From Dipteris shenzhenensis (lineage: Eukaryota), in assembly GCA_047967505.1 (NCBI GenBank), contig CM106538.1: 64,000 nt of DNA. One strand, given 5' to 3'. The translations under genes were made by a program, and so were the position numbers. Positions within the stretch are counted from its first letter, which is position 1. Every line of letters starts with the position of its first letter. Under the pieces are notes generated by a model, which saw only the letters and a list, made by a program, of their open reading frames with translations, did not search any database and was not told where the DNA came from. This document shows positions 12,647 to 50,100 of the stretch, in pieces.

Positions 12647-13884
12647 TCAATTTTTTCCTTGTAATCCACGAACACCGTAGATTGCTTGCTCAGTTTTTAA
12701 GAAGCCAATGTCAACCATTTCTTCAAACAAACACACATAATGCCCTTGAAGAGATATGGCCCTTTGAAAGAGGCGACTTGTTGTTTGAGCATCTATCTGT
12801 TGATTTGGATTGTTGAGCAAATGGTCATAAATGGTGAGGGACACCTCCAGGATGGCTGCTAAGGCTTCACTGTATCTTGCACTTTCCTTGAGTGTTTTGT
12901 CATCACTGCTTTGCATAATTGATGCATGTCTATCCAAGGCTCTGATGAGTGTTTCCTGGCTTGTCCATTTGATTTTAGAGTTTCTATTGATTAACGGCTA
13001 ATTGCGAGGAGCATCTGCATTATCTAGATCATGATGATTGGCATTCCACCGGTAGCGACGGGGCACCACATCAAATGTGGGATGCGTGCGAAAGGAAGAT
13101 GGAGCTTGCATATATTCAAGGAGGTACTTTTCATTAAGTAGCTTTGGTCTACGCCAAGCAAGCTGTGGCTCCAATTTCATGCTGATGTTTGGAGTGATTT
13201 GTGCTTGGCGGATACTCATTGAAATTCCCGAGAGGTCCCATCATCCTCTTGACTGTATGTTTGGGTATTTTCTCCAAAAACCACCAATGGGATTACCATG
13301 CATGGGAATCCTATCTGTATGTTGTTGCAACTCTCTTGTGGGTGTGCGTATTGGATTATCCAATTCTTGAAGCTCATTGATGGAATCATTAATGGTGTCT
13401 TCCATAGAAAACTCAAGGGAGCTTGAAGGGACATGTGGTCTTGGGGGAGAGGACGATGTTATAGGGGAAAAGCTTGAGGTCGAAGCAAGTAGTGATTTCG
13501 AGAAGTTAGAAGTAGGGATGTTGGAGGAAAGTGGAGGGAGAGCAGGACAAATTGACTTAGCAACTTGATAATCCTCAAGGGATGGATTGTCAAGTGTTGG
13601 GAAAAAGTTAGGTGTAACTGGATGATAGGAGTTAGATTCTTGGATTAGGCGATAGTGTTGAGAGCATGGCAAGGAATATGGATTAGCATGGATTTTTGGA
13701 AAGGTATGGAGGATAGTACTGGAGTTAGGTAGGGATGTTAGTAGATCAGAAGAGAGAGTGGCAAGATAGGGGAGATTAGATTGAAGGTAGACCATATATT
13801 CCTTTGGTAGATCCCTATCGCTTCTGGTAGGCATTGACAACTTTAATTTTGGATTTTTTTGGGAGTTGTATCCCATGGAAGTTA
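12647..13884 (-). pseudogene. 3' part of the Gypsy extra ORF (unknown function)
   Basis: ORFs 13241-13903, 12998-13219 and 12647-12937 lie in one frame, separated by single stops. The frame joins 17127-17369 once the nested element is removed. Confidence 0.7.
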
Positions 13885-14176
13885 TGACAAAGTGATGGAT
13901 CAAGGAGGATCAAAGCACCACAAGAGAGACATAGGGTAGCAAACACTCAATCTATTGCAAATGTATACTCAACAATACATGATAGGCTTCTTATATAGAG
14001 AGAGCCTTTAGAATAGTCAACATCTGTGGGATCCTCTGATCCACATCTCTCCTTGTGGATATCCTTGATCCACATATCTACATCATGTAGTCCACATCCT
14101 AGGGTGGCTACTTTAATTCTTTCCGATACCATACCTTAGCCTTTAATTTATGTGCTCATGGCACCATATCTCAACA
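13885..14176 (-). repeat. 3' LTR of the nested Gag-only element
   Basis: Reads TGAC...TCAACA and is adjacent to the PPT (AGGGGAGG on minus). Confidence 0.92.
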
Positions 14177-14388
14177 CCTCCCCTTGGTGCCATGATCTTT
14201 TGGCTACTACAAGGTGGTCAGCTGTGAGTTACATTACATCACCTCCCCTTAGTGCATGCATTGCTACTTAAGGTGGTCAAGTGTTGTTTCTACATGTCAA
14301 TACCTCCCCTGGGTGCTTTCATAGCTACTCTCAAGTGGTTAGGCTTGATTTACAAAATATAGGCAAGGTTGGCAAGGGTTTTCGTTTC

Positions 14389-15196
14389 TCAATACATTCC
14401 ATTGATGTCACCATTTGGCTCATGGCTTGATGATGATGCTATGTAGTTGACTTGCTGGTGCTTCAATTTGCAATCTTCTTCCTTATGTCCCAGCTTCTTG
14501 CAATGGTGACACTTTGGTTTGTTCTTCAGTCTACAGTCACTTTGATAGTGACCCATCCTTCTGCAATGGTAGCACTTTGTTAATGTTTTACTGAATAGTG
14601 CTTGTTCTTCATTATAGCTATTGTGTGTAGATGTTGATGTCGATGTCGATGCCTTCAACTCTCTTTCTTTTTCAAGAAGAGAGGATACACATTTCTCAAA
14701 CTTTGGATCTGGCAAATTCTTCAAAGTGGTTGTCAGTGCACTGTACTTTGTAGGCATGCTTTTAAGGAGTATTGCAAGTGCATCTTTCTCTCCTACTTTT
14801 GCATTTATGCCCTCTAGTTGGGTCATAATGCTTTTGATTTTGTTGACAAATTGTGCCATGGATTCATTGAAGCCCATGTGCATACCATAGAATTCAATCT
14901 TAAGATGGATTTCTTGGTTTTTGGCATTTGCACCAAACACTGTGTTCAACTCATCCCATGCATCCTTGGCATGATCTATGGAGTCTATATGATGAATTAT
15001 GTTTGGACCCAAGTGCAAACCAATGAGTGATAGTGCCGCTTCATCTTTTTCCTTACAGGCATCATTTTATGCAGTGGGTATTTCTTCTTTTACAGTCTTC
15101 CAAAGCTTTTGATGCATCAGGAGATACCTCATTTGTGTAGACCACGTGTGGAATCCTTCTCCAGTGAACTCAACAGTTGGGGTGCGTATTTGCCAT
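14389..15196 (-). pseudogene. Copia-type Gag with two CCHC zinc knuckles; upstream part has a stop and a frameshift
   Basis: ORF 14389-15018 has a UBN2/gag-like core plus CYHCRRMGHYQSDC and CHHCKKLGHKEEDC. Upstream in-frame sequence reads FTGEGFHTWSTQMRYLLMHQKLWKTV. Confidence 0.88.
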
Positions 15197-15828
15197 TGCA
15201 AATGTCTTACTAGTTGAAGATAATTTCAAATTTGGCAGTGTCTAATCAAAAAATCTTAGTTGACAGGTGCGTAGAGCTCAAAAAACTAGTTATTTTCCCT
15301 TTTTGGATCGTGTGCAAATTCTTTCTGGATTGAGAGTTATGCCTCGTCGAAGATTTTGTGGAGAAGAGGGGGCCTTTGCTAATGTGGCACAGGGATTCAC
15401 ATGCAGAATTCCATACTGTGCTTAGCAAGGGCTATGTGCTTAGGTGGTACTATGCCATGTGGCAACTAACTAAACCAAACTTACAAAGACTTAACCATGG
15501 TAAGGTTAAACTAACCATAACCCTTAACCCAAGGTCATACTTAACCAAGGTCCAAGTCACTTAACCATGGTTAATTTCTATCTTTGCCACGTGTCTTAAG
15601 GTTAGAGAAGAAAAATAGAACTGTGAGGAGGCTTCTATGAGACGACGCAACGCGGCGAGGAGTTTCTGCGATGTAGTGAACGACGGCTGGAGCAACGCGT
15701 AGGTGTTGAGGATGGAGCTGCTTAACATGAGGCGTTTGGAGAAGCTGTCTGTAGTCTTAGAAATGCAGGAGGGTAGATGAAGCTAGAGCATATGCTGAGC
15801 GACGTTGACGGAGGCGCGGCTACTGTAG

Positions 15829-15933
15829 GGAGCGAGAGCAAATGAGGGCAGTCATTTGAAGCGGGATGCTGGCAAGGTTGTTTTGCAGCGTGGAGAGATC
15901 GTTGGGAGCTCCATAGAGGGGCACTTTGATGGC
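15829..15933 (-). pseudogene. Continuation of the same LEA_2 gene in the opposite orientation
   Basis: Minus strand reads AIKVPLYGAPNDLSTLQNNLASIPLQMTALICSRS. This is the family's K(I/V)PLYG...RSR segment, expected directly after VVLQA. Confidence 0.75.
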
Positions 15934-16550
15934 TCCTTAACAACAGTAATCGAGTCCTTCTCCAAGCTCTCCCACCATGCTAGTAGTGCTCCAGGCACTC
16001 TTCAACAACCAATAGCGCTTCTAGCCTCCTGCATGCTCTATCTCCTTGCAAACAGCCTTCAGAGGGAAACCTCACTCGGGCTCGCGTAGAGTCCAGCCTC
16101 AGTAATGGTCGCTCTGAGAAGGGCCTCGTGGGCTAGTCGACCTGCTCTGTTATCGAGGAAGAGCCAGAATCATGCAGAAGCAGCACCGCCTCGTAGATCT
16201 ACATGATCTTGCTAGTCCTCCTCTCCTGTGCCGTCTTCCTCGGCCTCTTCATCCTTGTCTTTTGGCTCATTTGCAAGCCTTGGCATCCTGCTATTTCTGT
16301 GAAGAATGTCATCTTCCACAATCTCTACATGGGACAAGGGACGGACGCATCTGGCATGCCTTCTCAGATGCTTACGGTTGACTGAACCGTGCAAATTGAC
16401 TATAGCAACCCTTCAAAGTATTTTGGAGCTCACCTCTCTCCCCTTCAAGTCGACTTGGACTACTCGCAGCTTAACATTGCAACAAGTCAAACGGATGACT
16501 ACATGCAGGGAAAAAATAGCTATAAGGTAATATCGGTCGTGCTTCAGGCC
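15934..16550 (+). pseudogene. Captured LEA_2 / NDR1-HIN1-like (LEA hydroxyproline-rich glycoprotein family) gene, N-terminal and central part
   Basis: One frame with stops reads SRHSS...CSVIEEE...TM helix (LVLLSCAVFLGLFILVFWLIC)KPWHPAISVKNVIFHNLYMGQGTDASGMPSQMLTV...YSNPSKYFGAHLS...LDYSQLNIA...VVLQA. This matches my recollection of the At1g45688/At5g42860-type family. Confidence 0.85.
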
Positions 16551-16820
16551 GCTATCTATAGATGCACTTGAAGCCTTTTTTGTTGATGGCCTACGCTTGG
16601 TCGTTAGATAGAGGCGGCTGAAGTTCTTGATCTCTCTCAAATGCTCACGAAAGGAGCAGAGATCTTTCAAAGAATGAATACTCAATGAACGGAACTGAAC
16701 GGAATTTTTCTTTCATCAACGGAATGAAATATGGAATCACTCGACACTCGATCTCCTTTGACCTCTCAATCACTCTCTCATGCTCTCGCAAGGATCTCGA
16801 TGTCTCAATGGAAGACAAGG

Positions 16821-16834
16821 GAGCTCTGATACCA
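16821..16834 (-). promoter_or_regulatory. Primer-binding site (initiator tRNA-Met)
   Basis: TGGTATCAGAGCTC on minus, directly after the 5' LTR. Confidence 0.9.
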
Positions 16835-17126
16835 TGACGAAGTGAGGGATCAAGGAGGATCAAAGCACCACAAGAGAGACATAGGGTAGCAAACACTCAA
16901 TCTATTGCAAATGTGTACTCAACAATACATGATAGGCTTCTTATATAGAGAGAGCCTTTAGAATAGTCAACATCTATGGGATCCTCTAATCCACATCTCT
17001 CCTTGTGGATATCCTTGATCCACATCTCTACATCATGTAGTCCACATCCTAGGGTGGCTACTTTAATTCTTTCCTATACCATACCTTAGCCTTTAATCTA
17101 TGTGCTCATGGCACCATATCTCAACA
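16835..17126 (-). repeat. 5' LTR of the nested Gag-only element
   Basis: About 97% identical to 13885-14176. Confidence 0.92.
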
Positions 17127-19611
17127 AGTTGGTGGTGATTGTTGCAATAAAGGTAGGAGTCCAGCTATTATCCGAAGAGGGCTTCCCATCAAGCATTCAT
17201 AATGTAGTATTGGATCAGCCTTTACCTGTATGAGATTTGCATGTACTAAGAGACAGAACACATTCCTCTCATCTTCATCCATGTGCTGGCATAGATCTCG
17301 AAGATTCTTTGTGCTTACTGGTCTGGTCCAATCAAGACCAGATACTGCATGTAACATTTTGATTTGCAAGTGTTTCCAGAGTATGTGTATTCTTCCTTCA
17401 AGGTGATCCTCTTGCTGGAGAACTGCAACAAGCTCTTGGTATAATGTAGTGATCCTTGTATCAAAAGATCTTGTGCTGACCCCTCCGCATCATCATCGGC
17501 TTGGCCTAGTAGTTGAATTTTCAACTTGGAAATTATAGCTTTTTGATTTTGCCACTCCATGCACTTATCTTTATACATACCCAATGTGGAGGTGTATGCA
17601 AGCTTTAGACTATTGAATTGTTGAGCTGCTTTTGGATGCCCTGTAACTTGATCATTAAGCATGCGGAATTGGAGTATCTCTTGTTCTTGAGTGTCTAGTT
17701 CTGCCTTGGTGTGCACAAGTATCTCCCTTGATTCCCTGCCTTCCTTCTCTAGAGCTTGAATTTGATGTTCACCCTCTTTTAGGATATTTTGCAACTCATT
17801 GTTTATGTCTAATGTGGCATGGAGCTAATCCTTTTTAAGTAATAATCTTTCATTTAATTGCATCAATTCCTTTTTGATATCATCACAAGTGGCTTGCATA
17901 CGGGAGAGGGATAACTTGACCTTTTCCTTTTCGTTCAAGGCCTCAAATAGCTATAGGTGTTTATCTTGGAGAGAAACCGTGGCTTGTAGGGCATCCTCTC
18001 TACTTTCTGCTAGAGCATTGTGTGCAAGGAGTTGTTGCTGCATTTGTTTTGCCATGCTTTCCTTAAGCTTCATAATTTCAGTCTCTGCACTTTGCACTTT
18101 GGATTGGAGTGATGGGAGCATCTGTCTTTCCATTTCTCTTTCCTGCTCATCTGACACCATGGTAGCAAATAATTGATACCATTGTTGTAACTGTTGGCTA
18201 TGATGTTGTATGATCTGGAATGTGCTATGGCCTTGCTTGTATTGGTCATACAGTAGATTCCCATGTGCCCATGTGGAATTTTGATCTATGACTTGAACAA
18301 GAGTCTGTTGTATGGTGCCACTAGAGACATTTGTAGGTTGTGACTCTAGAGTCATGGAGTTGTCAATATTGGTGACTTGTGATTCCTGGAGAGGTATGTT
18401 ATTTGGCTCTTTTGCAGTGTCATTATGTGGAATGGTATCCTCTTGGATTTCCATGTTTGAGTCCTTCTGTTGTAGGAGCAAGACTGAACTGAGTTACAGT
18501 ATTCTTTGGCAGAGTTGCACATTGTCATCCTCTGGAGTCTGTTTGGATTGTTGCCCTTCCATGCTGTCCTCATTGAGAGTAGGTGGAGGGTCTAATTCCC
18601 ATTCTAGCGATATTATCAATGCTTCAAAGTCCTCTATATCTTGTGTTGAGCAGGGTGTAGAGTCATCCTCTTGCTCTATTGCAAACCCAATTATTATGGC
18701 CAATAGATGAGCAATGTAGCTTTTGCCATTATGGGTAGTGGATACATAATTGGTTAGTAGCAAGGATATGTGTTGAGCCCAATCTTGTAGTTTTGCTCTA
18801 CCAAGGAGTGTAAGAGTTTTTACTGACATATAGTTTTTTCTCACTCCTGAATGATTGAAAATGTCAACCAAAAACTTAGTTGCCTCTTTGCATATGGGGT
18901 CCGAAATTATTTCATGGCATATTCCCCCGCTTTGTGACTTTGTGTTAGGTGGGAATAAATCCTGAATTTCAGAGAATCTTGCATCCAAATGTTTCTTTGA
19001 ATATTCTTCTTGTGCATCTGGAAATGAGAAAGACTCCTGCATAGTGGATCTACTAAGGTAGATCTATAAGGTATTTTCTTTATATGTTACTGTCCCATAC
19101 TTATCTTTCTCCAACTCTCTGCTTTTATATGATCTTATGAATTGACAAATGTATTTGGTCATAGCAGGTGTTGGTGAGAAGGATTTTAGCTTCTTAAAAA
19201 GACTACCTATCTCTTTGACTGCAAGAAGTTGTAAGCATTGGGTGACATGGCGAACATTCAGACTCGTGGCCATACAAGCTGTATTGTTCCATCTGTTGCT
19301 AGCTCTTTGTTGGTCTGGTCCTCAAGGTGTTTTGCACCAGCATTTTGCATAGTCAATTGCTCTGGCTCCATTTCTCCTACCTCTAGTATCCCTTGGTTCT
19401 GTGGCATTTCTTCTTGGCATGTTGCATTTATTTGCTCATCAATATCACTGTCCAAAACCACTAGTCGTGGTCATTTTGGTGCTGACCTCTGGGTAGGTGA
19501 CTTTGCACCGTGTCCTTCAGGTTGGTGATTTAAGGAGGGCTGTTGAGGTTGAGGATTAGGCTGTTTGGCATGGTGTTGCTTTGTCGATGGCGTTGTAGAC
19601 CTTTTTCCCAT
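17127..19611 (-). pseudogene. 5' part of the Gypsy extra ORF in the env-like position; Q/E/K/L-rich, probable coiled coil
   Basis: Candidate ATG at 19611. ORFs 19064-19273, 18494-19042, 17951-18481 and 17315-17794 share one frame. Two frameshifts link the flanking pieces. Confidence 0.7.
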
Positions 19612-26000: not shown

Positions 26001-27061
26001 TGAGTGTTATTATTTCTTCGATTAAGGAAAATGTCAGCTGTTAAAGGGAGTGATTGAATCTCAGGGGGGGATTCGGGTTAGAGGATTGTCGGGGGCGGTG
26101 GTTTCAGCGGAGTTGTATGTAGATTTGGCAAGCGTTGGAGTCGAAAGCGTTAGCCGGAATGTAGCTGCATGCAGATTGGGCGAGATTTGCAAACGGTATC
26201 TCCGTCATAAGTGCGGGTGTTGGTATAGTTTTGTTTGGAGGGTTAGTTTGTGTAGGGACCATCGTGTTAATAATGTGCCTAAGATTGTCCTACGTGTGAA
26301 GGGAACTGTGCCGGTGCAGATGGATTGTTAATCGAAGGTCACGACGTGAAGATACGAGCAAATTTATGCGAAATGAGGCCTACACGAGGGCGCAAATGAG
26401 GAGTACTAGGGATGTTGAAATGGTGTGCAATGGGTTGGAAAAATATCTCGTAGCGTGGTGTTTTCGTGTGTGAAATTCTGGTTCAATCTGGGTCCCAAAC
26501 GGATGAGTTACGAGGGGTTAAAGTAAGGGTAAAAATGGTCCTTTTTTGTGGGGAGGGTCCTTGCCCTTAAGTTTGGTGTGAATGGTCCTAAACTTTAACT
26601 AGGATGGACTAACTAAACTAAGGAAGTTAAGCTAATCTACTAGTTAAGCTAACTTTGTAGTTAGAATAACTATCCTAACTAACTGCAGTCAAGCCACCAA
26701 CTCAAATATACTTAGTCTAACCTAGCTAACTAAACCGAGGTTTTACTAACCTAACTAGAGTATATCTAACCTAACCTAGGTTATTTAACCTAACCTAGGC
26801 GAACTAACCTAACTATGATTAGTTTTTAGGTTTCTTTACCCTCTCTTTTTTTTTTTTTGGGAAGGGGGGGGGGGGGAGGCCTAAAGCCTTAGCCTCTTAA
26901 GGCTAAGGCTTGGCGTGCGTTATTGCCACGTGGCATGCAAGCGGGCGCCATCGCATAGCGTGGGCATTGCTTGTGTGCAAGCATCGCTGTTGTTGGTGCG
27001 TGGGCGGGCTCCACCTTAGGCGGGCGCCTTCAAGGCCTTATGGCCTTATGGCCTTTGAGGG

Positions 27062-27071
27062 TAGGGGGGGC

Positions 27072-27118
<47 letters not shown>

Positions 27119-28385
27119 GGGGGGGGAAAGGGGGAGGGAGAGAGAGAGAAGGGGTGGAGGAAAAAAGAGAGGGGGGTGAGGGGGATGGAGGGAGGGGTGG
27201 AGGGGGTGAAGGGGGGGGTGGAGGTGGAGATTGGGGGAAAGAGGGAAGGGGGGGTGGAGGTGGAGATGGAGATGGAGATGGGGGGGAAGGAGGAAAAGAA
27301 AAGGGGGTGGAGGTGGAGATGGAGATGGGGGGGAAAGAGGGAAGGGGGGTGGAGGTGGAAAAAAGGGGGGGAAAGAGGGGAAAAAAAAAGGAGAGGGGGT
27401 GGGGTGGAGGGGGTAAAGGGGGGGTGGAGGTGGAGATGGAGATGGAGGGGAAAGAGGGAAGAAGGGGGGGGTGGAGGTGGAGATGGAGATGGGGGGAAAG
27501 AGGGAAGGGGGGTGGAGGTGGAGATGGAGATGGGGGGGAAAGAGGGAAGAAGGGGGGGGGGTGGAGGTGGAGATGGAGATGGGGGGGAGAGGGTAGAAGG
27601 GGGGGGGGGGTGGAGGGGGTAAAGAGGGGGCGTGGAGGTGGAGATGGAGATGGGTGGGAAAAAGGGAAGAAGGGGGGAAGGAGGTGGGGGTGGAGGGGGG
27701 TGGAGGTGGAGGGGGATAGAGAGAGGTAGAGAGATAATGGAGTGTAGGGAGTGGGGGATAGAGAGAGATAGAGAGATGGTGGAGTGGAGGGAGTTGGAGA
27801 TGGGGGATGGAGGAGGAGATGGGAGATGGAGGGGGAGGGGAAAAAGGGGAGATGGGATGTAGAGAGAGGTAGAGAGATAATGGAGTGAAGGAAGTGGGGG
27901 ATGGAGAGAGATAGAGAGATGGTGGAGTGGAGGAAGTTGGAGATGGGGGGTGGAGGAGGAGATGGGAGATGGAGGGGGAGGGGAAAAAAGGGAAGATGGG
28001 ATGTAGAGAGAGGTAAAGAGATGGTGGAGTGGAGGGAGTTGGAGATGGGGGGTGGAGGAGGAGATGGGAGATGAAGGGGGAGGGGAAAAAGGGGAGATGG
28101 GATGTAGAGATAAGTAGAGAGATAGTGGAGATTGGGGGGTGGTGGAGGAGATGGGAGATGGAGGGGGAGGGGAATAAGGGGAGATGGGTTGTAGAGAGAG
28201 GTAGAGAGATGGTGGAGGGAAAAAGGATGGTTGCCTTGAGTGGGGGAGATGGGGAATGGACGGAAAAAGTGGAGGTGGTGGGGAGGAAGATGATTGGAGG
28301 TGGAGATGGAGATGGAAGGGGGGGTGACGAAAAAAGTGGTGGTGGAGGGGGGATTGACACAAAAAAATGGTGGTGGTGGTGGTGG
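27062..28385. repeat. Purine-rich (G/A) degenerate tandem array in the Gypsy 5' leader
   Basis: Repeated GGTGGAGGTGGAGATGGAGATGGGGGG(G)AAAGAGGGAAGGGG units, then longer ~100-bp units. Almost no C on the + strand. Confidence 0.9.
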
Positions 28386-28693
28386 ACGAAAAATAGAGAA
28401 AGACGAAAATTATGGCAGCTTAACGGAATTTGGAGAAGGAAGTCGCTAGCAAAAGGGTGGGGAAAGAAATGAGGGGGGTGGTGTCGCTTTTATAGGATGT
28501 GGGAGGATTAAGGGTTAATTTTGGGTGTTTAGTGTATTAATGTGATTTTGTAAGTTAACATTATCCTTTTGCATTTTTTGGAAGCATTTTTTCACTCCTT
28601 TGCCTTGAGGGATGTATCTAGTATGGTTTTTCGTAGGGGGTTCTTTTTTCACACATGCAAGCACGTGCTTCGCTTTCACTTCACGTGCTAACC

Positions 28694-30703: not shown

Positions 30704-30976
30704 GAGATTTGGTAAAGAAAAGCAACGAGGGCGATAGAGCAGTTCTAAGCTCGAGATTTGGTAAAGAAAAGCAACGATTAGACAGAACGATTGCAACCGG
30801 AGAGAGAGCCAGAGAAATTGATTGATAGCCAGAGAGATTCATTGTAAACAATGAGCACCGATTGATTGATTGATAGACAGAGAGATTGATTGATTCATTG
30901 TAAACAAAGAGCACCCATGGAGAGATTGATTGATAGCCCGAGCGATTGATTGATTCATTGTAAACAAAGAGCACCC
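30704..30976 (+). repeat. Tandem repeats just upstream of the MetRS start codon
   Basis: GAGATTTGGTAAAGAAAAGCAACGA occurs twice, followed by three ~45-60-bp units ending GATTCATTGTAAACAA(T/A)GAGCACC. Confidence 0.85.
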
Positions 30977-30984
30977 ACAACGCC

Positions 30985-31326
30985 ATGGCCATCAGGTCCA
31001 GCCCCATCCACTTCCTTCCTCCTCCCTTGCTCCCTTTCCTCCCCTCCCCTCGTTGTTACCCCCTCCCCTGCTCATCCTTTCCCACCCTCTCCAACCCATT
31101 GCGCCTTCGCAGCAGCAGTCGCCAACCAGCTCGCTCTAAATCAACGACGACATTTTGTGTCAATCAGCAGAGCTCTGGCGCACACACCGCAGCAGCAGCG
31201 GATGAAGAAAGGCCTGAAACCGCCAGACCGTTTGTCGTTACCACCCCTCTCTATTACGTCAATGCGCCTCCGCACATGGGCAGCGCCTATCCCACCATTG
31301 CTGCGGATGCTCTTAGCAGGTTTCAG
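30985..31326 (+). CDS. OVA1: MetRS exon 1 (transit peptide and HIGH-like motif)
   Basis: MAIRSS...AADALSRFQ followed by a GT donor. Confidence 0.92.
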
Positions 31327-34300
31327 GTCTTGCCGCAGCCCAAATTGCTAACGAAATCGCACCGTTGTAAGCACCGTGCACTTGATATATGTTGGCCTAG
31401 CTTGTGTAGCTCGTGCATACGCTTCCATGCGCACTTTCTGAAACCGCAAAGCGCTTCAATTTGATTATGGGTCCGTAACCTGCAGAGACTGCAAGGTCGG
31501 AAAGTCGTCTTCGTGACAGGAACAGACGAGCATGGAGAGAAAATTGCTCTTGCAGCAGCTGCCAGTGGTCGTGAACCCAAAGAGCATTGTGATTTAATTG
31601 CAGCCGACTATCGATCATTGTGGAAAGATGTAATGAGCTCGACCATTTATAACTATAATTATAATCGCAGTGTTTTAGCCCAGCTTTCCTCTTTTTATTG
31701 CTCTCATAGTTTATTTCCGAGGAATTTCCCATCCTAACGTTTGTGGCATTGCAGCTAGATATTGCTTATGATAGGTTCATTCGGACAACAGACCCTAGCC
31801 ATGAAAAGATCGTGGCTGAATTTTACAGAAGGGTCTCTGAAAAAGGTGATATTTATCGAGCAGACTACGAAGGTCTCTACTGTATCAATTGTGAGGAGTT
31901 TAAGGTGCCTGTCGTAACCACACATACTGGTCTTTCTTTTGAAAGAAACAACTGTTTTAAAGCTTTCTGCTTACCCTCATGGGGTCGAACAAGTGGTAAG
32001 ATTGTCGTAGTTGTACTGCTTACTGTTGTCTTGCAATTCAGATTGCCTGATTCATTGAGTAATTCTTGAGCTTCAACAGATTATGCAGTTCCCTTTTAAT
32101 TGTATCGCTTATGCAGGGAATAGGAATCCTGCAATCTGTTGCCATGCAGATATTGATACGTGTGCTTATATGAGCTCGAGTACGAGTCACATGGCTATCC
32201 ACAGTCTCCAACTCTCTATGATGGGACAACATTGGTCCATCCAGCTTCTGCGTACAAAACAAAACAAAACAAAACAAGCATAGGCCAGTCTAGTTCCTGT
32301 CATGAGCTCCCGTAAAAGCATAGGCCACATTGGCCTAGTATTTTCACAAAGTCAAGTACAACCTGCTAAGCTAAGAATAAGAGTCAAGCGGCAGGCCTCA
32401 AAGGCTCATGGTAATGTGCTCGGTGCTCACCTGGGAAAGGATGTAGACTCTCTCTCTTCCACGAGGTTGCTTGAGAGAAAGTTGGACCAAGGGAATTTTG
32501 ATAAGTGGAAAAATGTGTGTCTATCAACATCTGTGCTTCCTATGGAGAGACTAGTGACATAGCCATCTCTATCGGACATCAGAGATGAAGTCATGAATAC
32601 TATGGGGATTTGAATAGTGAATGCAAGGAAGTAGCCATTCCATGTATGGGACAAGAACCTTGATCTCCTGCAACCTACATATTTTAAAATTGGATGGCAT
32701 GCTGACGTGCTTAGAACTTTGAAGGAAGGCTGCTTGAGGAATGCATTGGAGTAGGGATGTAATTTGTTGGGTGCAGCATTTGGGGCAAACTGCAGTTTAC
32801 CTATGTAGACCTAGAAGCTAGGAAGGAGGGGTGCTAGTTGAGTTGCAGCAGTAGTAGTAGCAAAATGGGAAAAGTGGGTGGAGTAGTAGCAGCAGTCCGA
32901 GGCTGTTAGAAATGACCCAATAGAGGGTACGCACAGCGGAAGACTGATAGTAATGCCTAGGAGCTCACACAGTGTGGTGTGGGGTGTGGAATCACAAACT
33001 TCTTCAATGTATGTGTATAGAATAGATGTGCAGGCTCATCGATAGACAATGAACCAACCAGATAGAGAAACCACCAAAACAATATATTTCCATCCAAAGC
33101 TATGGACACAATACAAAAGAGATAGATCCAGAGTCCCACCAATGGTGAGGTCCTCTGATCTTACCACAAGGTACTTCTCCTAACTGCTGGCTATCTCTAG
33201 ACTCGAGCCCGCGTGCTCCACCTCAAGCGTCTGTAGACTCTCTGTCCAGAATGGTTCTCTCTACCTTACTGCCTGTAGATCAGCCTAGGTAGGCAGCCCT
33301 TTCTCAGCTTTGTCTGCAGCTTCTATGTGCCTCCTTCACCTCCTGGATGTAGGCCCAAGGAAGGTCCTCCTGCTGCTTCAATCTGCTGGTGGTTGGCTGC
33401 TCCAGAGAATATGATGATCACAACACCTTGCTGCCCTAGAAGACAGCCAAGGTCCAGCCTCTAGGGAACTCAGTCTGCAGCTCACCTTCCACTCTCCTTC
33501 ACCCCCAGTGTGAGGCCCAAGGGAGTGGCTTCTGGCTGCTCCTGTCTGCTCCTGCTCTGGCTGAATGTTGGATATGTATTATGAAATGAGGCCCAGGGCC
33601 TCTCCTTTTATAGGGCTCAAGGCCCCCTTGAACCAACCGACCAGCCAGCCCTAATTGGGCCGACTGGCTGGTCTGTAGCAGCCCTAACCAACCGACCAGT
33701 TGGTTGGCTGGTTGGCTGCCTATCCAGCCCTATTTAGGGCCGTTTGCTGGCCCTTTGTTCCATGCAGGGCCCAGCCCCTTTGGACTGCCTACCCCGCCAC
33801 CTGCCAGCCCTGCTTGCAGGCCATAGACCTGCCCAATACCTGCTGCAACAGTGCGACTCCATGCTGCTACTGTTCTGCCTCTGTTCAGCCCTTGTCCGGA
33901 CCTTGGCGCACCCTGCACACCCTCCATACACTGCCCTGCAGCAGCCCGTACTGATCCGTACAGTGGCTGGCCCCTTTCTCTGGGCATACCTTGCCCTAGG
34001 TCTCCCTCCCCCATGCTCTCCTCATTTGGGGGCTTACAGATGGGGAGGTGACCTTTCCAACAGAGGCTGTGTTGGGGCTCGCTGCCCCTATAGGTAGCAT
34101 TATCTCAATTTGGCCCTCTTGGGCCTTGTGGGCTGCCTTAATTAATCTTACAGAGCTGCGAACTATGGCACTCAATGCTGCCAGAGAAAATGCAAACCAA
34201 ACAATTTTTTTCACAAATGGGCTGCTAGTGGTGGCAACCAACTTTGCTAGGGACAGTCAAGTGCACCCACCACCAGACAAACATCCACGAATAGTCAAAT

Positions 34301-37300
34301 GCGATCGGCCTAGATATTGCCCAAAGCAGCGTCAAGTGAGAGGACATCCACAAATGGCCATCCACGAACGGGCTGCTAATGGTGGCTGGCTTTGCCAGGG
34401 ACAGTCAGGAGCAATTGGCACTAGATGGACATCCGCAAATAGTGGTCAGCCTACCAACTTAGAGGAAAGGTGCTGCAGGCTAGGGTGCATGTTCGGAGGG
34501 GGAAAGGGTAGAGGGTCCCAATGGGATGGAAGGACAGTCCTGCGGAGGGAAGGAAGGAGGCAGGAAGGGAGCAAGGGCAAGAAACAAAGAAAGAAAGGGA
34601 GGGCCGAAAAACCCATGAGACAAGAAACTGATCAACATGAGTGTACCCCCCGGGGGAAAGCAGAGCTGTTTATCACGCCTCCAAAAGAAAGTATTGATGA
34701 GCCTAGGAACAACAAGAAGAAAACTGGAGTTTTTCCTATCCTGTGACGTTGCGTGTTGTGTATCTCGTATCTATCATGTGCAGTTGAGCTCTACCTCATA
34801 GTTACTAGGGAACGCCATTCGCTTCATATGGAACTTGGCAACGTTGTTCTGCTTAGGATGACTATTGGGAGACTAGTTACTAAATGATAGCTTTGTAGTA
34901 GCCAAGGAGTTCCTCTTTTCTTTCTTCTGTCTAACTCGATGCTGTTCGCTTGCCTTTTCAGGGTCTTTGCTAGTTCCCTAGTTTTTGTAGGCCATTTGGC
35001 AAATAGCACAATGCATTTGTGGTTTGGGAAGGAATAACTTTTCTCGAATCCGTGTATCCATTGGTGAAGAGACAGTGATATCCCTATGAATCTCATAGTA
35101 ACTAGGGCATTGCATCATGACATGATTCTCTATCTTCACCTCCTGTGTGTTACAATGAGTACTGAGCCTCAGATCTCTATGAAGTTGATGTGTGCACACC
35201 AGCACTGCTTGTCTCCCTCGGTTGCAACTGCATAGATGATGAGAGGGAAATCCAAGGTAGTCTCTTTCGACTTGCATTTGTCTAGCCGAACTGCTCGACT
35301 TGGTCAAGCTAGGTGATGATTTGGAATGAGTTATCTATGTCAAGGGTTTCATTGCAAATTGTGCTAGGATATCGTCATGTGGGGTACATTGCTTGCTCTT
35401 GATCATGCGGGAGCCAGAGTTGATTCTTGATTGCGTGTTGTGTCGATAAAAGAGGCCAGCTCATCAATGTACATGCCAAAGAGGTTGGGGGAGAGGCTGC
35501 TCACCTCTTCTGACAGGCCTATAGGTGGGCACTCTGCTTGTAACTCTCTCATACAAGGCCTTGATTGTTCGTATAACGACGTGTGCAACACCCAAAACTT
35601 GGGAGTCATGTGATGAGGCGAGCCTGTGGTACTGAATCAAGGCCTTTTGAAGAGTCCACACAGCAGTAGTTTACTCTCACTTTTCGGTGTCGAGTCTCCT
35701 CTATGATGCCTCTAGGGTGAATATGTGATCCAGTGTGGATCGATCTCGTCTGATGCTTGGGTAGTTGCTCGCATCTTTGTACTCCCTGTGTGCATATCTC
35801 GAGAGTTGACCCGTAACCTTGGCCATCAAATACCGACCATGATAGTCTGATAGCTACCTACACCCAGGGGATTCCTTGCCTTGTAAATGGGTATGATGGT
35901 ATTAGTGGTCTAGGAAGTTGGAGAGCCTTTGCAGAAGGCCTCATTAAATAGCTTGGCTAGGCTTGGAGCAAGAGCCGTACCTGGTTCAACCGTGGTTAGA
36001 TAGCGGGTATAGGTGCCTATATATAGGCCCTGGCAGTCCATCTTCCAGGCTGCTATACAGACCTTTTACTCCACAGACCTGTGCTGTACCATCACAGCAG
36101 TTTCTGAGTGTTCCTGCTGCTCCAAACTGATCAGGCTGCTGCGCAAACCTATGCTGCAGGTAGCCCCTTACCCCCTACAGTCTACTGACCCCCTGTCCTC
36201 CTCATTTGGGGGCTCACAAGTGGGTCAGTGACTTCTAACAGATAACACTATCACTTCACCCATGGATACAGAGATATGGGGAAAGTGTCACGGGCATTTT
36301 GGACAGTTCTCAGCAGTGCAATCACTTGGCTTGCTGTTTTGTGCCCTGCCCCTTTGCTGGAAGCTTTGTGCTCTTTTGTGAGCTGTTTGTGGATGAATAG
36401 AGTTTGAGTTATTTCCTCTCTTCTTCTCTTCTATCTGCTGTCTACTTTCTGCAGTGAGACCATCTCTATGCGAGTGCATCTTGAGTGATCAAAGTAAGGT
36501 GCCTGCTGAGCCTGTTTCGTTGGTATGGCAAGTTTCTTGTTATCTCTCTGTGGTTTCAAAAGTGATTTCTACGTCTACTCCCACTTCCGTTCCTTCGTTT
36601 ACTACTGCTTCCACAACCACTCCTGAGTCCTATGACAATTCCAAAATTTAGAGAAGTAGGAAAGCTTTATGGGACAAACTAACCCATCTGGAAGGTGAAG
36701 ATCCATAGCCATTTGGTGGCTAGGAAGATCACAACGGGGGTGGATCCGATGCCCAGGGACATCAAGGATGCTTCAGGAAAGATCACGATGGCTGTAATAT
36801 AGATGAGCTCGAAGCATGGGAAGACAAAGATGCCCAAGCCCTTGCACTAATCATAGGAACGACTGCAGACTTTGTCATTCCACATGTTCAGACTTCTGAG
36901 GCGTGGGTGGCTCTGAAGGATTTGACCGAGATGGAAAAACGTCCAGGATCCTATCTCTCCAGTACCAATTGTTACACAACATGAACATGGAGCAAGTAGT
37001 TCAAGTACATGACCATCTCACGAAGGTGAAGGCGGCGAGAGATCGTTTGGCTTCAGTTGGTCAGACAGTGGACTCAAGCCAGCTAGCATTGTTGGTACTT
37101 GGGATGCTTCCGAGGAGTTTCAAAAGCTTTGTGACTGCCATGACAATGGGAGAGAGGACGAGGCCTTTGACATTTGAGGAACTTGGCCCCTTGTGGCTGC
37201 AGGAGGAGGCTAGGGAGAAACTCTATGAGAACAACAATGACAAGGTGTTTCTAGCAAAGGACAAATGCAATTCCAGCAAGGTAAAGGCAAAAGATGAATC

Positions 37301-38135
37301 CAAGGGTGATAAGCCAGGAGATGCAGACAAGAAGAAAAGAAGCTGGGACAAGAAGTGTTTCTACTATGAGAAATCTGGACGCTTGGCAAAAGACAGCTGC
37401 AAGAAGAAGGCGGATGAAAGCTGGGTGGTTTTTGTGAATCAGATTGGGCAGGTGATTGGGATACTCGGATTTTACTTTTGGCTATTGTTCCATTCTTGCT
37501 TCAGGGTTCATTCATGGCTAAGCAAGAAACAACCAAGAGTTGCCTTTCTTCTAGAGAGGCGGAGTACAAGGCTGCTTATTGTAGCATGTGAGACGTTGTG
37601 GTCGAGATAGATTCTAGAAGACATGGGCGTGCTTTAAGACGAATCACTTGTGTGAGCTTTAATTTAGCTCATCTTAAATGCTGTTCTAGAAGGTCCAGTT
37701 TTTAATGTAAATGCTGGTAATTGTATGCTAGCTCAATAACTCAGGCTTATCATGACAGCGTATCGAGTCGTTCTAATTACAGGATTTGATTGCATTGATG
37801 TTTGTAGCATTATCAAATTAAATATGGGATGTTTGTAGCATTATCAAATTAAATATGGGTTTGGGTGTATGATTCATCCTTTTATTGGCTAATAGGATGA
37901 GAAGGACTTGATTGAAGAGAAATGCTGTCCAATTCACCGGAAGCCATGCGAACACAGAAAAGAAGATAACTATTTTTTTGCTCTTAGGAATTATCAAAAG
38001 AGCCTAGAAGATCTTCTTTCCTCAAATCCTCAGTTTGTGCAACCCAGTTTCCGCTTGAATGAGGTAAGCCCTGGCACATGTATGTATTTGTTTCCGTGCA
38101 TGTCATCCTTGGGCTGCTTGACTTTTACTACAAAT

Positions 38136-47100: not shown

Positions 47101-50100
47101 ATCTATTGGGAAATTAGGTCAAGGGAGGGTAACATGTCTACGTCGTAGTCTTGTTTTCCTTGGACAATTATTCAGGTGAACATGGAGATGGAAGGGGAGC
47201 AATTTCAAGTGCCTCATGAATGAAACCTACCAGGGTAGGAGAGGAAACGGGCCAAAATCCCATAACTATCCTTGAAGAGGCAGTGGAAACGCCCTCGGAT
47301 CTCATAGTAAACAGGACACCTGAAGATGAAATGCTCCTCTGTCTCAACCTCCTGCATGTCACACAGTGTGCATATGCGCCTCTCCCTGGGTAGTCGCTCT
47401 ACTCTGCCGCTCTCGATGCAAAGTCTGTGTGAAGAGACCCGGAATTGCCCAAGAGAGATCCTCAGCGAGTGGGGTTGGTGAATCTGTGTGTATCTTGGTG
47501 GGTCAATGAAACTCTCCGTTGTGATATGTAAGAAGTGATCTCTGTAGAAGCTAAGCTTCACTAGGAGTTCACTCGGTCCCAACTAGGTTTGAAATGTGTG
47601 TAGCTGTAGTAGATCCTCACAGATAACCTGGTTGACCTCGTGTGACTAGTCGCTCAAACCATCTCTCTGTACGTGCATTCCAGCACCTCTGGTCCCCTCC
47701 TGTTGCAAGTGCCATAGAAGAGGATAGAGCTATCCATGGTAGCCTGCTACGCCCCGAGGTGTAATCCCCATATTCCCTAACTCGGTACAGATACGTGATG
47801 ACCTGAAATGCAGCATCTAGCTGTAAAGGGGGTGACCCAAACTTAGCCTGAATGATCTGGTGAGGAATGGATGGCTTACCACGAATCATCCGTGATAACA
47901 TGAGAACCTATAGCCGCTCCACAAGGGCCCACTCTGTATCCGACAAGTCTGGCCCCCAACAAGGGCTGCCGTACGTCCCCGCTGGGCGAACCAAGGAGTC
48001 AAAAAGCAACCCCTTGGTGCGTGGATCTTGAAAGTGTGAGCGGAAGCATTGCCTTTCTAGTCTGGCCAATGAAGCATACCCTTTGCTCAAGCGTGCCTGC
48101 ATCGTGGGTCTCATAGTGAAGCTGGGTCCGAAAAAGATAACCCCAAGATAAGTGTATGATGAAACTATCTCAACAGGCGACCCCTCAAATGTGAACTGCT
48201 TCTGATGCATGATGGCTCGAGATGTATTGAAGATCATGACCTTGGTTTTACCTAGGTTGACCTTCAAATCATGAGACTCACAAAAGGACTGTAGTGCATC
48301 TAGGTGTCTCTGGAGCCCCTCTGCCGAGGAAGACAAGAGAGCCACGTCATCTACGTAGAGCAATATCTGGATCAGCGTGCCCGCAAGAGAGCAATCTACA
48401 CCCCCCTGTGTCTGCATCAGTGTCTCAAGCTCATCAATGTAGAGGCCAAACAAGGTAGGCGACAAAGGACACCCTTGTTTGACCCCGATGGTGCTCAGGA
48501 TCTTGTCTGTCCACCCGGATCCTGCCCAAACTAAGGTTATGACTTTAACACGTATATTTCTTCACCCCATGTGTATGGATCAATAACTTGGTTGAAAGCT
48601 TTGTTAAAGTAATCCACTCAATCTAAATGTTTGTTGAAGTAATGTAGAAATCGAATTTGAAAAAACCAAGGTGGTGGAATCTAAAATATGGGTCTCTGGT
48701 ATTGTGGAAAATTAATGGATTTCTACTTACGTTAGTGTTATGGAAATGATTTTAACTTTACTATAACAGAAAATTAATGTATATTAATATGAATTGCATT
48801 TTATTTTTCAAGGGTATTCATTAATTCAAAGTTAAAATCAAAGTGGTTTTAGCACAATTTTTTTAATTGTTTCCCATTTGCTATGAACGGTTCGTTTATT
48901 TGCAGGATGGTTTGAAGATGGGGAAGTCATTAGGAAATACAATTGAACCAAGAGAGCTTGTTAGCAAGTTTGGTTCAGATGCAGTTCGCTACTACTTTTT
49001 AAAAGAGATCGAGTTTGGAAAGGATGGAGATTATGCTGAAGAGCACTTTGTCGATATTGTCAATGCTCATCTTGCAAATACAATTGGTAAGTGAATCCAC
49101 TTTGGTCAGCATTAATGTTGGAGTAGACTAATTGTAACTTCTACAATGTTGTCCATATTGAACTTCGTAATTGTGTAAGCTAAAAATTTGTAAAACTTAG
49201 TAACTGCAGCGACCCTGTGCAATTTTTATATAGGGAACAAAGCAATTTCAATTGGAAAGTTTGATCAATGTTGGTAAACGTGAATTAGGGGTGCTAGTAT
49301 GCCAAGTAATACATGATTGAATTGGGGTGCATGTGGGACAAAAGGTGGAAAAAGTCACGACTTATGCGTCTACTTGTTTTTGAGTTGCAGTTCTTTTCTT
49401 GTTTAAAAAATAACCACCTGTGGGAAAATGGAATCTTTTGCGCCCAGAATTGAAAATTTGATTCGTGCTACCCACAAGTACCTACTTTCAATGCTTCGCA
49501 CCTTTAGGAGTGAGAGTGGAGAGAATGGGAGTGAAGCAACACAAGATCTGATGTTGCAAGGATGGAGAATGAGGGCAACCCAAACTTGGATTAAACTCAC
49601 ACCCTTCTAAACACAGCCATTAACTGTGGTTAGGGGGAAAAACTTTAGATAAGGCAAAAAGTGTCTCCAACCCTTCTAACTAATTATTACATTGGCATTG
49701 TCCCCCTCCCCCCCTTGCCTGCCCTCCTTTCCCCCGTGATAATGTTCTGATGTACAAGGTGTCATCTCGTGTACCAAACAGAAGTAAGTCCAAAGCTTTG
49801 CGAAAAGCTTCAAACTTTTCTCTAGGTAAAGCCTTGGTGAAAATATCTACAGCATTTTGATGTGTAGCACAGTAGATCAAACTGATCTCTCCTGCATGTA
49901 ATCTCTCTTTGACATAGGGATAGTGTATCTCAACGTGTTTTGTGCGAGATGATGTTGGAGTTGAGCATCTCCTAGTGTACTATGTGTAGATCATGAGTGA
50001 GGGCCTTTGTTGAGGGTGTGCCTGCCCCATGTGAGGATAGAATAGGATAGGGTTGGCTGCATACCTGGGCATGTGTGTCTGCCAGGCCGTTGTGGTGGAT

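What the first reader, a model, noticed from the sequence alone, without database searches (positions are those of the whole stretch)
15829..16550. Host LEA_2/NHL gene captured inside a Gag-only retroelement and split into two oppositely oriented pieces
Seen: the leader of the 3.2-kb element holds a LEA_2-family coding sequence on + ending ...GTG CTT CAG GCC (VLQA, 16550). Its expected continuation, GCC ATC AAA GTG CCC CTC TAT GGA (AIKVPLYG), starts on minus at 15933, sharing GCC at the break. Read in element sense, the layout is [inverted 5' part][sense 3' part], and no introns are visible over about 240 codons. Known: this geometry is the signature of twin-primed 5'-inverted retrocopies, and LTR elements can capture spliced mRNA by template switching. 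Inference: a processed host transcript was captured and rearranged. Element transcripts would then be mostly antisense to the parent gene and could act as a mobile source of trans-acting siRNA. The cargo has several stops while the LTRs differ by only about 3%, so it was probably propagated with the family rather than inserted here.
Basis: partly seen in the sequence, partly recalled or inferred. Interest (0 to 1): 0.75.

Follow-up and report, generated by a model that had tools for sequence, protein, structure and literature searches.

The report
Split host gene inside gag-only retrotransposon
A small plant jumping gene that encodes only a capsid protein carries a dead, intron-free piece of a host stress/defence-type (LEA_2-like) gene, cut at one codon with the larger part flipped; this is a neat example of a known kind of gene capture.

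Summary
Window 13885-17126 (minus strand) is a complete 3,242-bp Copia-type LTR element. It has 292-bp LTRs with 8 mismatches, TG..CA ends, a tRNA-Met-type PBS, a PPT and a 4/5 target duplication. Its only protein domains are gag-type.

Its leader holds two pieces of one host protein. Plus 15951-16550 matches residues 79-276 of a fern homologue. Minus 15933-15832 matches residues 276-306. All 7 homologues hit by both pieces place the break at the same residue.

The cargo does not hit Pfam LEA_2 itself, but 19 of 28 rows of the family alignment do. Fragmentary relatives point to two conserved phase-0 introns. The cargo runs uninterrupted across both sites, so it most likely derives from spliced RNA. 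It has 3-5 in-frame stops, against 0.25-0.6 expected from the LTR divergence, which modestly favours carriage before this insertion.

The twin-priming geometry is real, but the copy is 3'-truncated and has no poly(A). The flanking repeat is only marginal.

No sister copy or parent gene lies in the window, and no plant genome could be searched. The mechanism of the inversion, family-wide carriage and any siRNA role remain open. This is a new member of a known kind (Bs1-like capture in a TR-GAG-type element).

The parts
13880..13884 (.). Left copy of the 5-bp target-site duplication (AGTTA).
   Evidence: Read. It matches 4 of 5 bases with AGTTG at 17127-17131.
13885..14176 (-). 3' LTR of the element (292 bp). 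In element sense it starts TG and ends CA.
   Evidence: Direct repeat with 16835-17126: 97% over 293 nt, aligned, and 8 mismatches in 292 bp (5 transitions, 3 transversions).
14177..14185 (-). Polypurine tract (AAGGGGAGG in element sense), immediately upstream of the 3' LTR.
   Evidence: Read. Similar motifs recur in the imperfect repeats at 14172-14339.
14389..15225 (-). gag open frame. It has one internal TAA at 15067-15069 and no in-frame ATG ahead of the first domain.
   Evidence: Pfam hits: Retrotran_gag_2 (5.3e-28), zf-CCHC (2 stretches, 2.2e-6) and DUF4219 (3.8e-6). A six-frame scan of 14177-16834 finds no other family at E <= 0.01.
15226..15831 (-). Leader segment between the cargo and gag, of unknown origin. 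The part at 15600-15831 is GC-rich (50-55%).
   Evidence: Composition profile. There is no Pfam match and no match to the cargo's family profile. Short TTAACC/CCATGG-rich repeats lie at 15469-15574.
15832..15933 (-). Cargo piece B. It is in the sense of the element, corresponds to residues 276-306 of the fern homologue and includes the conserved VPLYG motif.
   Evidence: (profile positions 239-272).
15934..15950 (.). Internal junction between the 5' end of piece A and the 5' end of piece B. It cannot be assigned to either.
   Evidence: It lies between the tblastn ends. The family's N-terminal region is too poorly conserved to place the end of piece A more exactly.
15951..16550 (+). Cargo piece A. 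It is antisense to the element and corresponds to residues 79-276 of the fern homologue, covering the membrane anchor and most of the LEA_2-like domain. Counted from 15939 it has five in-frame stops.
   Evidence: (profile positions 52-239). It is contiguous across the putative intron sites at 16304/16305 and 16490/16491.
16551..16822 (-). Leader segment between the PBS and the cargo.
   Evidence: No protein-family match. Its first bases take part in the marginal repeat at 16546-16562.
16823..16834 (-). Primer-binding site, TGGTATCAGAGC in element sense, directly after the 5' LTR.
   Evidence: Read. Passages of PMC3852365 give the same 12-mer as the tRNA-Met-complementary PBS of plant Copia elements. 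The window holds no tRNA gene to test this against.
16835..17126 (-). 5' LTR of the element (292 bp).
17127..17131 (.). Right copy of the target-site duplication (AGTTG).
   Evidence: Read.

Best explanation
A non-autonomous, gag-only Copia-type LTR retrotransposon (TR-GAG type, minus strand, 13885-17126) carries a 5'- and 3'-truncated fragment of a spliced host mRNA in its long leader. The mRNA encodes a membrane-anchored LEA_2-like protein.

The fragment most likely entered the element lineage during reverse transcription, when reverse transcriptase switched between the element RNA and a co-packaged host transcript. This is inferred, not shown. The break at one alanine codon and the inversion of the 5' part probably arose in that same aberrant event, because no recognisable element sequence separates the two pieces.

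The cargo then travelled as a non-coding passenger and decayed. This copy integrated later.

The cargo encodes no protein. Transcripts from the 5' LTR would contain about 600 nt antisense and about 100 nt sense to the parent gene. Any regulatory effect is unshown.
For: Shown:
- The LTR element is complete: LTR pair, TG..CA ends, PBS, PPT and a 4/5 TSD.
- Only gag domains appear in six frames of the internal region.
- The two pieces are exactly contiguous in the family. The same break residue is found in 7 of 7 homologues, and both pieces meet at profile position 239.
- The fragment covers profile positions ~48-272 of 312, so both ends of the CDS are missing.

Indirect evidence that the cargo is spliced:
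- Among 150 representatives, 27 have a match boundary at profile positions 216-224 and 22 at 154-161.
- 10 of the 16 proteins that end near 220 and have a residue aligned there show Val followed by S/R/N, as a read-through GT donor would give. Only 15 of the 102 proteins that span the site have Val there.
- 6 of 8 ends at position 157 run into Val, and 2 of 8 skip straight to position ~220.
- A 64-aa relative with 54% identity to the cargo is exactly this middle exon.
- The cargo is ungapped across both sites.
- The break (position 239) and the fragment's 3' end (position ~272) do not coincide with these boundary peaks.

Evidence for carriage before this insertion:
- The cargo has 3 stops in the well-aligned 175 codons, or 5 in 199, against 0.25-0.6 expected from the LTR divergence. 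This gives P 0.002-0.02 and <= 5e-4 respectively.
- gag has one internal stop.

Precedent:
- Bs1 of maize, and LTR-mediated retroposition by template switching that yields partial mRNA copies flanked by both LTRs and able to retropose again (passages of PMC13317346 and PMC5131818).
Against: - Template switching on RNA templates predicts cargo in the sense of the element (model passages of PMC5131818). Here about 85% of the cargo is antisense, so an extra step is needed and is not identified.
- The cargo sits upstream of gag rather than replacing coding sequence as in the Drosophila cases.
- No sister copy, cargo-free copy or parent gene could be examined.
- The intron positions are inferred from unnamed fragmentary relatives, not from the parent gene.
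- The stop-codon excess could also reflect faster methylation-driven decay of the GC-rich cargo, capture of an already dead copy, or LTR homogenisation.
- A marginal ~17-nt direct repeat flanking the cargo fits insertion into a pre-existing leader better than replacement.
Confidence: 0.5

Rival explanations
1. LINE-mediated twin priming. A host mRNA was reverse-transcribed by a LINE enzyme at a nick in the leader of an ancestral (or this) element copy. The second DNA end primed internally at the alanine codon, giving a 5'-inverted processed pseudogene inside the element.
For: - The geometry is exactly that of a 5'-inverted retrocopy, with only a 3-nt overlap at the break.
- The cargo appears spliced.
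- An imperfect ~17-nt direct repeat (15812-15829 and 16546-16562) flanks the cargo. Only 4.4-4.6% of random 30-mer pairs score as high.
- A LINE-type reverse transcriptase remnant lies in the same window (47908-48558, RVT_1 1.2e-18).
- 5'-inverted structures are a recognised class of L1-mediated copies (abstract of PMC2912911).
Against: - The sense piece stops at profile position 272 of 312. The rest of the CDS, the 3' UTR and any poly(A) tract are absent.
- The flanking repeat is marginal and was noticed after the fact.
- No T-rich nick-site motif is apparent at the flank (my reading; the nick-site preference is recalled).
Confidence: 0.15
2. Two separate events. An ordinary sense-oriented capture of one contiguous mRNA fragment by template switching came first. 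A later DNA-level inversion (two breaks, end joining) then flipped about 617 bp in a progenitor copy or in this copy.
For: - A single inversion of 15934-16550 restores one contiguous sense-oriented fragment, which is what the template-switch model predicts.
- The 3-nt shared GCC is compatible with a staggered break or microhomology.
Against: One inversion breakpoint would have to coincide, within about 20-55 bp, with the original cargo/leader junction. No element-derived sequence is recognisable between the 5' end of piece A and piece B. For random breakpoints in a 1.6-kb leader this is a chance of a few per cent (my estimate).
Confidence: 0.15
3. One-off patch. After this copy integrated, a double-strand break in its leader was repaired with filler DNA copied from a host cDNA in two pieces of opposite orientation. 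In that case the family as a whole does not carry the cargo.
For: - No other copy could be inspected.
- Scrambled filler in both orientations at plant repair junctions is known (recalled, not checked in a paper here).
- The marginal flanking repeat could be repair microhomology.
Against: - The cargo has more in-frame stops than the 2.7% LTR divergence predicts. This points to an age greater than that of this insertion, unless the source was already a pseudogene.
- No local donor is present in the window.
Confidence: 0.08
4. Functional reading (not exclusive of the others). The mostly antisense cargo makes the element family a mobile source of small RNAs that silence the parent LEA_2-like gene in trans.
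For: - Transcription from the 5' LTR would give about 600 nt antisense to the parent (geometry).
- Captured gene fragments in maize TEs are reported to act as siRNA reservoirs against donor genes (passages of PMC13317346; abstract of bioRxiv 10.1101/777037).
Against: - There are no expression, small-RNA or methylation data.
- The parent is unknown, so sequence identity to it is unknown.
- Pieces A and B do not overlap, so the element RNA forms no hairpin from them.
- The cargo shows neutral decay.
Confidence: 0.07

Closest known systems
Bs1 of maize: an LTR retrotransposon that transduced fragments of host genes (passages of PMC13317346 and PMC5131818)
   Same: - Host coding fragments lie between two LTRs.
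- The fragments are partial, exonic sequences.
- The chimera can itself retropose further.
- The element is small and non-autonomous (Bs1's size and gag-only content are recalled, not read here).
   Different: - Bs1 combines three genes into a transcribed, translated chimeric frame. Here there is one gene fragment, riddled with stops, split at one codon and mostly antisense to the element.
- Copy number and spread are unknown here.
TR-GAG elements: terminal-repeat retrotransposons with a GAG domain (PMC4350172, abstract and passages)
   Same: - The element is under 4 kb.
- It has LTRs, a PBS, a PPT and a 5-bp TSD.
- Its only protein similarity is to GAG of the Copia (UBN2/Retrotran_gag_2) type.
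   Different: - In the text searched, the TR-GAG paper has no occurrence of 'captur' or 'Bs1'. A 1.6-kb leader holding a host gene fragment is therefore not part of its description.
- The criterion of at least two copies in the genome could not be tested.
- gag here has an internal stop and no in-frame ATG.
LTR-mediated retroposition by microsimilarity-dependent template switching (Tan et al. 2016, PMC5131818, passages)
   Same: - An internal retrocopy is flanked by both LTRs.
- Only part of the mRNA is copied.
- Further retroposition as a pseudo-element is possible.
   Different: - The model gives sense-oriented cargo that replaces element ORF sequence. Here most of the cargo is inverted and sits in the leader.
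- Microsimilarity at the fusion points cannot be scored without the parent gene and a cargo-free element.
Twin-primed (5'-inverted) L1-mediated retrocopies (abstract of PMC2912911; mechanism recalled)
   Same: - The layout is [inverted 5' part][sense 3' part].
- The two parts abut in the source RNA with a tiny overlap.
- Introns are absent.
   Different: - There is no poly(A), and the copy does not reach the mRNA 3' end.
- The target duplication is only marginal.
- The copy is embedded in an LTR element.

Membership tests
LTR retrotransposon, Copia superfamily | Two long terminal direct repeats with TG..CA ends | tested here: met
   The LTRs at 13885-14176 and 16835-17126 are 292 bp with 8 mismatches. 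The termini were read.
LTR retrotransposon, Copia superfamily | PBS next to the 5' LTR and PPT next to the 3' LTR | tested here: met
   The PBS 12-mer at 16834-16823 is identical to the tRNA-Met-complementary PBS listed for nine Copia families (PMC3852365 passages). The PPT at 14177-14185 was read. The window has no tRNA gene for a direct pairing test.
LTR retrotransposon, Copia superfamily | 5-bp target-site duplication | tested here: met
   AGTTA and AGTTG match at 4 of 5 bases.
TR-GAG (PMC4350172) | Length under 4 kb, with similarity to GAG only and none to protease, integrase, RT or RNase H | tested here: met
   The element is 3,242 bp. A six-frame Pfam scan of the internal region finds only Retrotran_gag_2, DUF4219 and zf-CCHC at E <= 0.01.
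TR-GAG (PMC4350172) | At least two copies in the genome | not testable with these tools
   There is no second copy in the 64-kb window, and no plant genome collection was available.
LEA_2 (Pfam PF03168) / NHL-type proteins | Match to the LEA_2 profile | tested here: inconclusive
   The cargo pieces and the fern homologue give no LEA_2 hit even at E <= 10. However, 19 of 28 rows of the family alignment (26 homologues plus the 2 window pieces) match LEA_2, with best E 5.9e-7.
LEA_2 (Pfam PF03168) / NHL-type proteins | Single N-terminal membrane anchor ahead of the domain | tested here: inconclusive
   A hydrophobic stretch of about 25 residues precedes the conserved W..(R/K)P motif in the cargo and in all aligned relatives. 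No membrane-helix predictor was run.
Twin-primed LINE-mediated retrocopy | Inverted 5' part joined to a sense 3' part, contiguous in the source RNA | tested here: met
   The same break residue is found in 7 of 7 homologues.
Twin-primed LINE-mediated retrocopy | The sense part ends at the mRNA 3' end with poly(A) | tested here: not met
   Piece B ends at profile position 272 of 312. No remainder is found in any frame, and there is no A-run downstream.
Twin-primed LINE-mediated retrocopy | Target-site duplication flanking the whole insertion | tested here: inconclusive
   The imperfect ~17-nt repeat is at 15812-15829 and 16546-16562. Of random 30-mer pairs, 4.4-4.6% score as high.
LTR-mediated retroposed chimera (Bs1 / Tan et al. 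type) | Intron-less partial mRNA copy between both LTRs | tested here: met
   The position between the LTRs and the partial coverage are shown. Absence of introns is inferred from boundary clustering in relatives, not from the parent gene.
LTR-mediated retroposed chimera (Bs1 / Tan et al. type) | Cargo in the same orientation as the element | tested here: not met
   Only 102 nt (piece B) are in element sense, and about 600 nt (piece A) are antisense.
LTR-mediated retroposed chimera (Bs1 / Tan et al. type) | Microsimilarity between the mRNA and the element at the fusion points | not testable with these tools
   This needs the parent gene and a cargo-free element, and neither is available.

The most novel reading that the evidence does not exclude
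The split, mostly antisense cargo records a two-primer (twin-priming-like) reverse-transcription accident that took place on or inside an LTR-retrotransposon intermediate. The resulting TR-GAG family has since spread antisense copies of a LEA_2/NHL-like host gene around the genome, where they feed small RNAs that cross-silence the parent gene.
Probability: 0.1. Interest if true: 0.6.

Novelty: new member of a known kind. Interest (0 to 1): 0.3.

Why it matters
It is a clean, fully delimited example of a plant LTR retrotransposon carrying host coding sequence, with base-level resolution of an internal rearrangement. If sister copies and the parent gene were examined, the three junctions could show whether inversions of captured sequence arise during reverse transcription or later. 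The same data could show whether gag-only elements, like Bs1, act as vehicles for host gene fragments outside the angiosperm cases read here. As it stands, it adds an instance rather than a principle. Gene capture by LTR elements, gag-only non-autonomous elements and siRNA cross-talk from captured fragments are all in print.

Tried and rejected
- **Direct Pfam assignment of the cargo and of the fern homologue to LEA_2:** no hit. The label rests on relatives only.
- **A longer duplication at the break:** none beyond GCC.
- **The missing N- and C-terminal parts of the gene anywhere in the window, in six frames, with a family profile:** none found. Other matches have E >= 0.8 and tblastn E >= 3.5.
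- **Other copies of the element or cargo in the window:** none.
- **Homology between the GC-rich leader part (15560-15831) and the cargo:** only a 15-nt inverted match that does not extend (9 of 300 shuffles reach its score). I treat it as probably chance.
- **Names and sources of the closest unnamed relatives:** The taxa of P0003-P0151 are therefore unknown.
- **Close relatives of gag, to gauge copy number or find the autonomous partner:** 3 unnamed hits at 51-63% identity among proteins of 152-487 aa. Longer proteins were not searched.
- **Literature on intron positions in NHL/LEA_2 genes:** two NHL family papers contain neither 'exon' nor 'intron', and a ryegrass LEA paper has nothing relevant.
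- **tRNA genes in the window, to test PBS pairing:** none.
- **Collections not used:** the bacterial, phage, plasmid and E. coli collections cannot hold this plant sequence.
- **Tools not run:** no structure prediction or complex prediction was run, because neither would bear on the questions left open.

Full report
**The element**

A direct repeat of 293 nt at 97% identity joins 13884-14176 to 16834-17126. Alignment and base-by-base comparison set the LTRs at 13885-14176 and 16835-17126. They are 292 bp long with 8 mismatches, 5 of them transitions and 3 transversions.

Read on the minus strand, each LTR starts TG and ends CA. The right-hand LTR is followed at once by TGGTATCAGAGC (16834-16823). 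This is the 12-mer that a study of nine plant Copia families lists as the tRNA-Met-complementary primer-binding site (PMC3852365, passages). The left-hand LTR is preceded by the purine run AAGGGGAGG (14185-14177). The flanks AGTTA (13880-13884) and AGTTG (17127-17131) form a 4/5 target duplication.

The only coding potential is a gag frame at 15225-14389:
- Retrotran_gag_2, E 5.3e-28.
- Two zinc knuckles.
- DUF4219.

A six-frame Pfam scan of the whole internal region (14177-16834, stops read as X) finds nothing else at E <= 0.01. The element is therefore a complete, 3,242-bp, gag-only Copia-type element on the minus strand.

It meets every criterion that the TR-GAG paper lists, except the copy-number criterion, which cannot be tested here (PMC4350172, abstract and passages). 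gag itself is slightly damaged. It has one internal TAA and no in-frame ATG ahead of the first domain.

**The cargo**

In one plus-strand frame, 15939-16568 reads through five stops as a 210-residue sequence (P0001). The word-based protein search returned a single hit, a 350-aa hypothetical protein of the fern Adiantum nelumboides (P0002; E 5.5e-45, 46% identity).
- P0001 aligns to residues 79-276 of P0002.
- The 36-residue translation of minus 15936-15829 aligns to residues 276-306.
- tblastn of P0002 against the whole window finds only these two places.

An exhaustive phmmer search with P0002 found 327 representatives at E <= 0.001. A profile built from 26 near-full-length representatives places the plus piece at positions 52-239 and the minus piece at positions 239-272, out of 312.

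In the multiple alignment, the minus piece supplies the nearly invariant P, Y and G of the VPLYG motif, directly after the column where the plus piece ends. In 7 of 7 homologues hit by both pieces, the break projects to the same residue.

The two pieces share only the GCC codon. Beyond it there is no similarity above shuffles.

**Family label**

Neither the cargo nor P0002 matches Pfam LEA_2. However, 19 of the 28 rows of the family alignment do, with a best E of 5.9e-7. The cargo therefore belongs to a divergent, membrane-anchored branch related to LEA_2. 'NHL' as a name is not tested here.

**Was it captured as RNA?**

The parent gene is not in the window, and no plant genome could be searched. 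An indirect test was possible.

Among the 150 listed representatives, many are fragments or carry insertions. Their match boundaries pile up at two profile positions:
- 27 proteins have a boundary at positions 216-224.
- 22 proteins have a boundary at positions 154-161.
- 102 and 98 proteins respectively span these sites in one stretch.

Several features mark these as intron sites:
- Where a match ends near position 220, the next residues are typically Val followed by Ser, Arg or Asn and then unrelated sequence. A read-through GTAAGT-like donor would give exactly this. It occurs in 10 of the 16 proteins with a residue aligned there. Among the 102 proteins that span the site, 15 have Val there, and it is then followed mostly by Lys.
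- Three proteins carry 22-35 unrelated residues between the two flanking blocks.
- At position 157, 6 of 8 ends run into Val, and the other 2 jump straight to position ~220, as if the middle exon were skipped.
- A 64-aa representative that is 54% identical to the cargo consists of exactly that middle block.

These patterns indicate two conserved phase-0 introns in the family, including the cargo's closer relatives. The cargo aligns without a gap across both sites, at window 16304/16305 and 16490/16491.

The break (position 239) and the 3' end of the fragment (position ~272) do not coincide with boundary peaks, and the 5' end (~48 or earlier) cannot be placed precisely.

I conclude that an origin from spliced RNA is likely, but it is not proven for this genome's parent gene.

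**Age**

The frame of piece A has five in-frame stops, three of them within the 175 well-aligned codons. At the divergence implied by the LTRs (1.4% per copy, or 2.7% as an upper bound), 0.25-0.6 stops are expected. This gives P 0.002-0.02 for three stops and <= 5e-4 for five.

Two of the three interpretable stops replace Gln and Trp columns of the alignment. They are consistent with C-to-T or G-to-A changes (the codon inference is mine).

Three alternatives remain open:
- Faster decay of a GC-rich, methylated segment (GC 50-55% against about 40%).
- Capture of a dead copy.
- LTR homogenisation.

**Mechanism of the split**

In element sense the order is [antisense 276->79][sense 276->306]. A single inversion of 15934-16550 would restore one contiguous sense fragment. 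This geometry is the same for three routes:
- LINE twin priming.
- A multi-switch accident during reverse transcription in the particle.
- A later DNA inversion.

*Against strict twin priming:* the sense piece stops 40 profile positions short of the C-terminus, and no remainder, 3' UTR or poly(A) follows.

*For some insertion-type event:* an imperfect ~17-nt direct repeat flanks the cargo, at 15812-15829 and 16546-16562. However, 4.4-4.6% of random 30-mer pairs score as well, and I found it after looking. A LINE reverse-transcriptase remnant lies elsewhere in the window.

*Against a separate later inversion:* one breakpoint would have to fall within about 20-55 bp of the original cargo/leader junction, because nothing recognisably element-derived lies between the two pieces.

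*Against simple template switching:* that model yields sense-oriented cargo (PMC5131818 passages).

I therefore favour one complex reverse-transcription event in the element lineage. I hold that only at moderate confidence. The empty-site comparison with sister copies would decide the question.

**Function**

Nothing indicates a function.
- The cargo cannot encode a protein.
- Its two pieces do not overlap, so the element RNA forms no hairpin from them.
- Antisense transcripts could in principle feed small-RNA cross-talk with the parent gene. This is described for captured fragments in maize (PMC13317346 passages; abstract of bioRxiv 10.1101/777037). No relevant data were available here.

**Comparison with known cases**

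The nearest precedents are Bs1 of maize and LTR-mediated retroposition generally, together with TR-GAG elements.

My three literature searches on twin priming or orientation of cargo in LTR elements did not bring up a 5'-inverted retrocopy inside an LTR element. These were narrow searches of an open-access library, and I do not claim that none is in print.

**Left unchecked**
- Copy number of the family.
- The parent gene and its introns.
- The taxa of the unnamed relatives (one search was not available).
- Longer gag-bearing proteins, that is, the autonomous partner.
- The origin of the GC-rich leader part at 15600-15831.

Noticed in passing
window 15812-15829 and 16546-16562: An imperfect ~17-nt direct repeat brackets the whole cargo block. 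Its right copy overlaps the last cargo codons. Of random 30-mer pairs, 4.4-4.6% score as high. It could be a target duplication, switch microsimilarity or chance.
   Followed up: partly
window 15600-15831: The leader segment next to cargo piece B is as GC-rich as the cargo (50-55% against about 40%) and has a strong G excess on the plus strand. It matches neither the cargo's family profile nor any Pfam family. It may be a second foreign fragment or untranslated sequence.
   Followed up: partly
window 15763-15777 and 16020-16034: A 15-nt inverted match (14/15) links the leader and cargo piece A. It does not extend, and 9 of 300 shuffles reach its score.
   Followed up: yes
window 14172-14339: Between the gag stop and the 3' LTR, a unit of about 65 bp carrying a polypurine-tract-like motif occurs about three times in imperfect tandem. 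Copies at 14172-14277 and 14237-14339 are 73% identical. The motif was read.
   Followed up: no
window 15469-15574: A cluster of short direct and palindromic repeats rich in TTAACC and CCATGG lies in the leader.
   Followed up: no
window 47908-48558 (minus): An open frame has a LINE-type reverse transcriptase domain (RVT_1, 1.2e-18). It shows that non-LTR elements exist in this genome.
   Followed up: no
window 55750-59025 (plus) and 36900-37607 (plus): Other Copia elements are present: gag (Retrotran_gag_2, 1e-26) with RVT_2 (4.3e-39) further on, and a separate gag fragment (3.4e-10). Neither shares DNA similarity with the gag-only element.
   Followed up: no
window 30964-31461 (plus), best around 31234-31329: An open frame contains the start of a class I methionyl-tRNA synthetase domain (tRNA-synt_1g, 2.3e-6). 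It is apparently an exon of a host gene in this otherwise repeat-rich window.
   Followed up: no
window 26959-28489: A low-complexity tract of about 1.5 kb gives long spurious open frames on both strands (Gly/Glu/Arg-rich and Pro/Ser/Leu-rich).
   Followed up: no
window 13241-13906 and 17315-19060 (minus): The sequence into which the element inserted carries long minus-strand open frames on both sides. None has a Pfam match above the curated cutoff. It is probably part of another, unclassified repeat.
   Followed up: no
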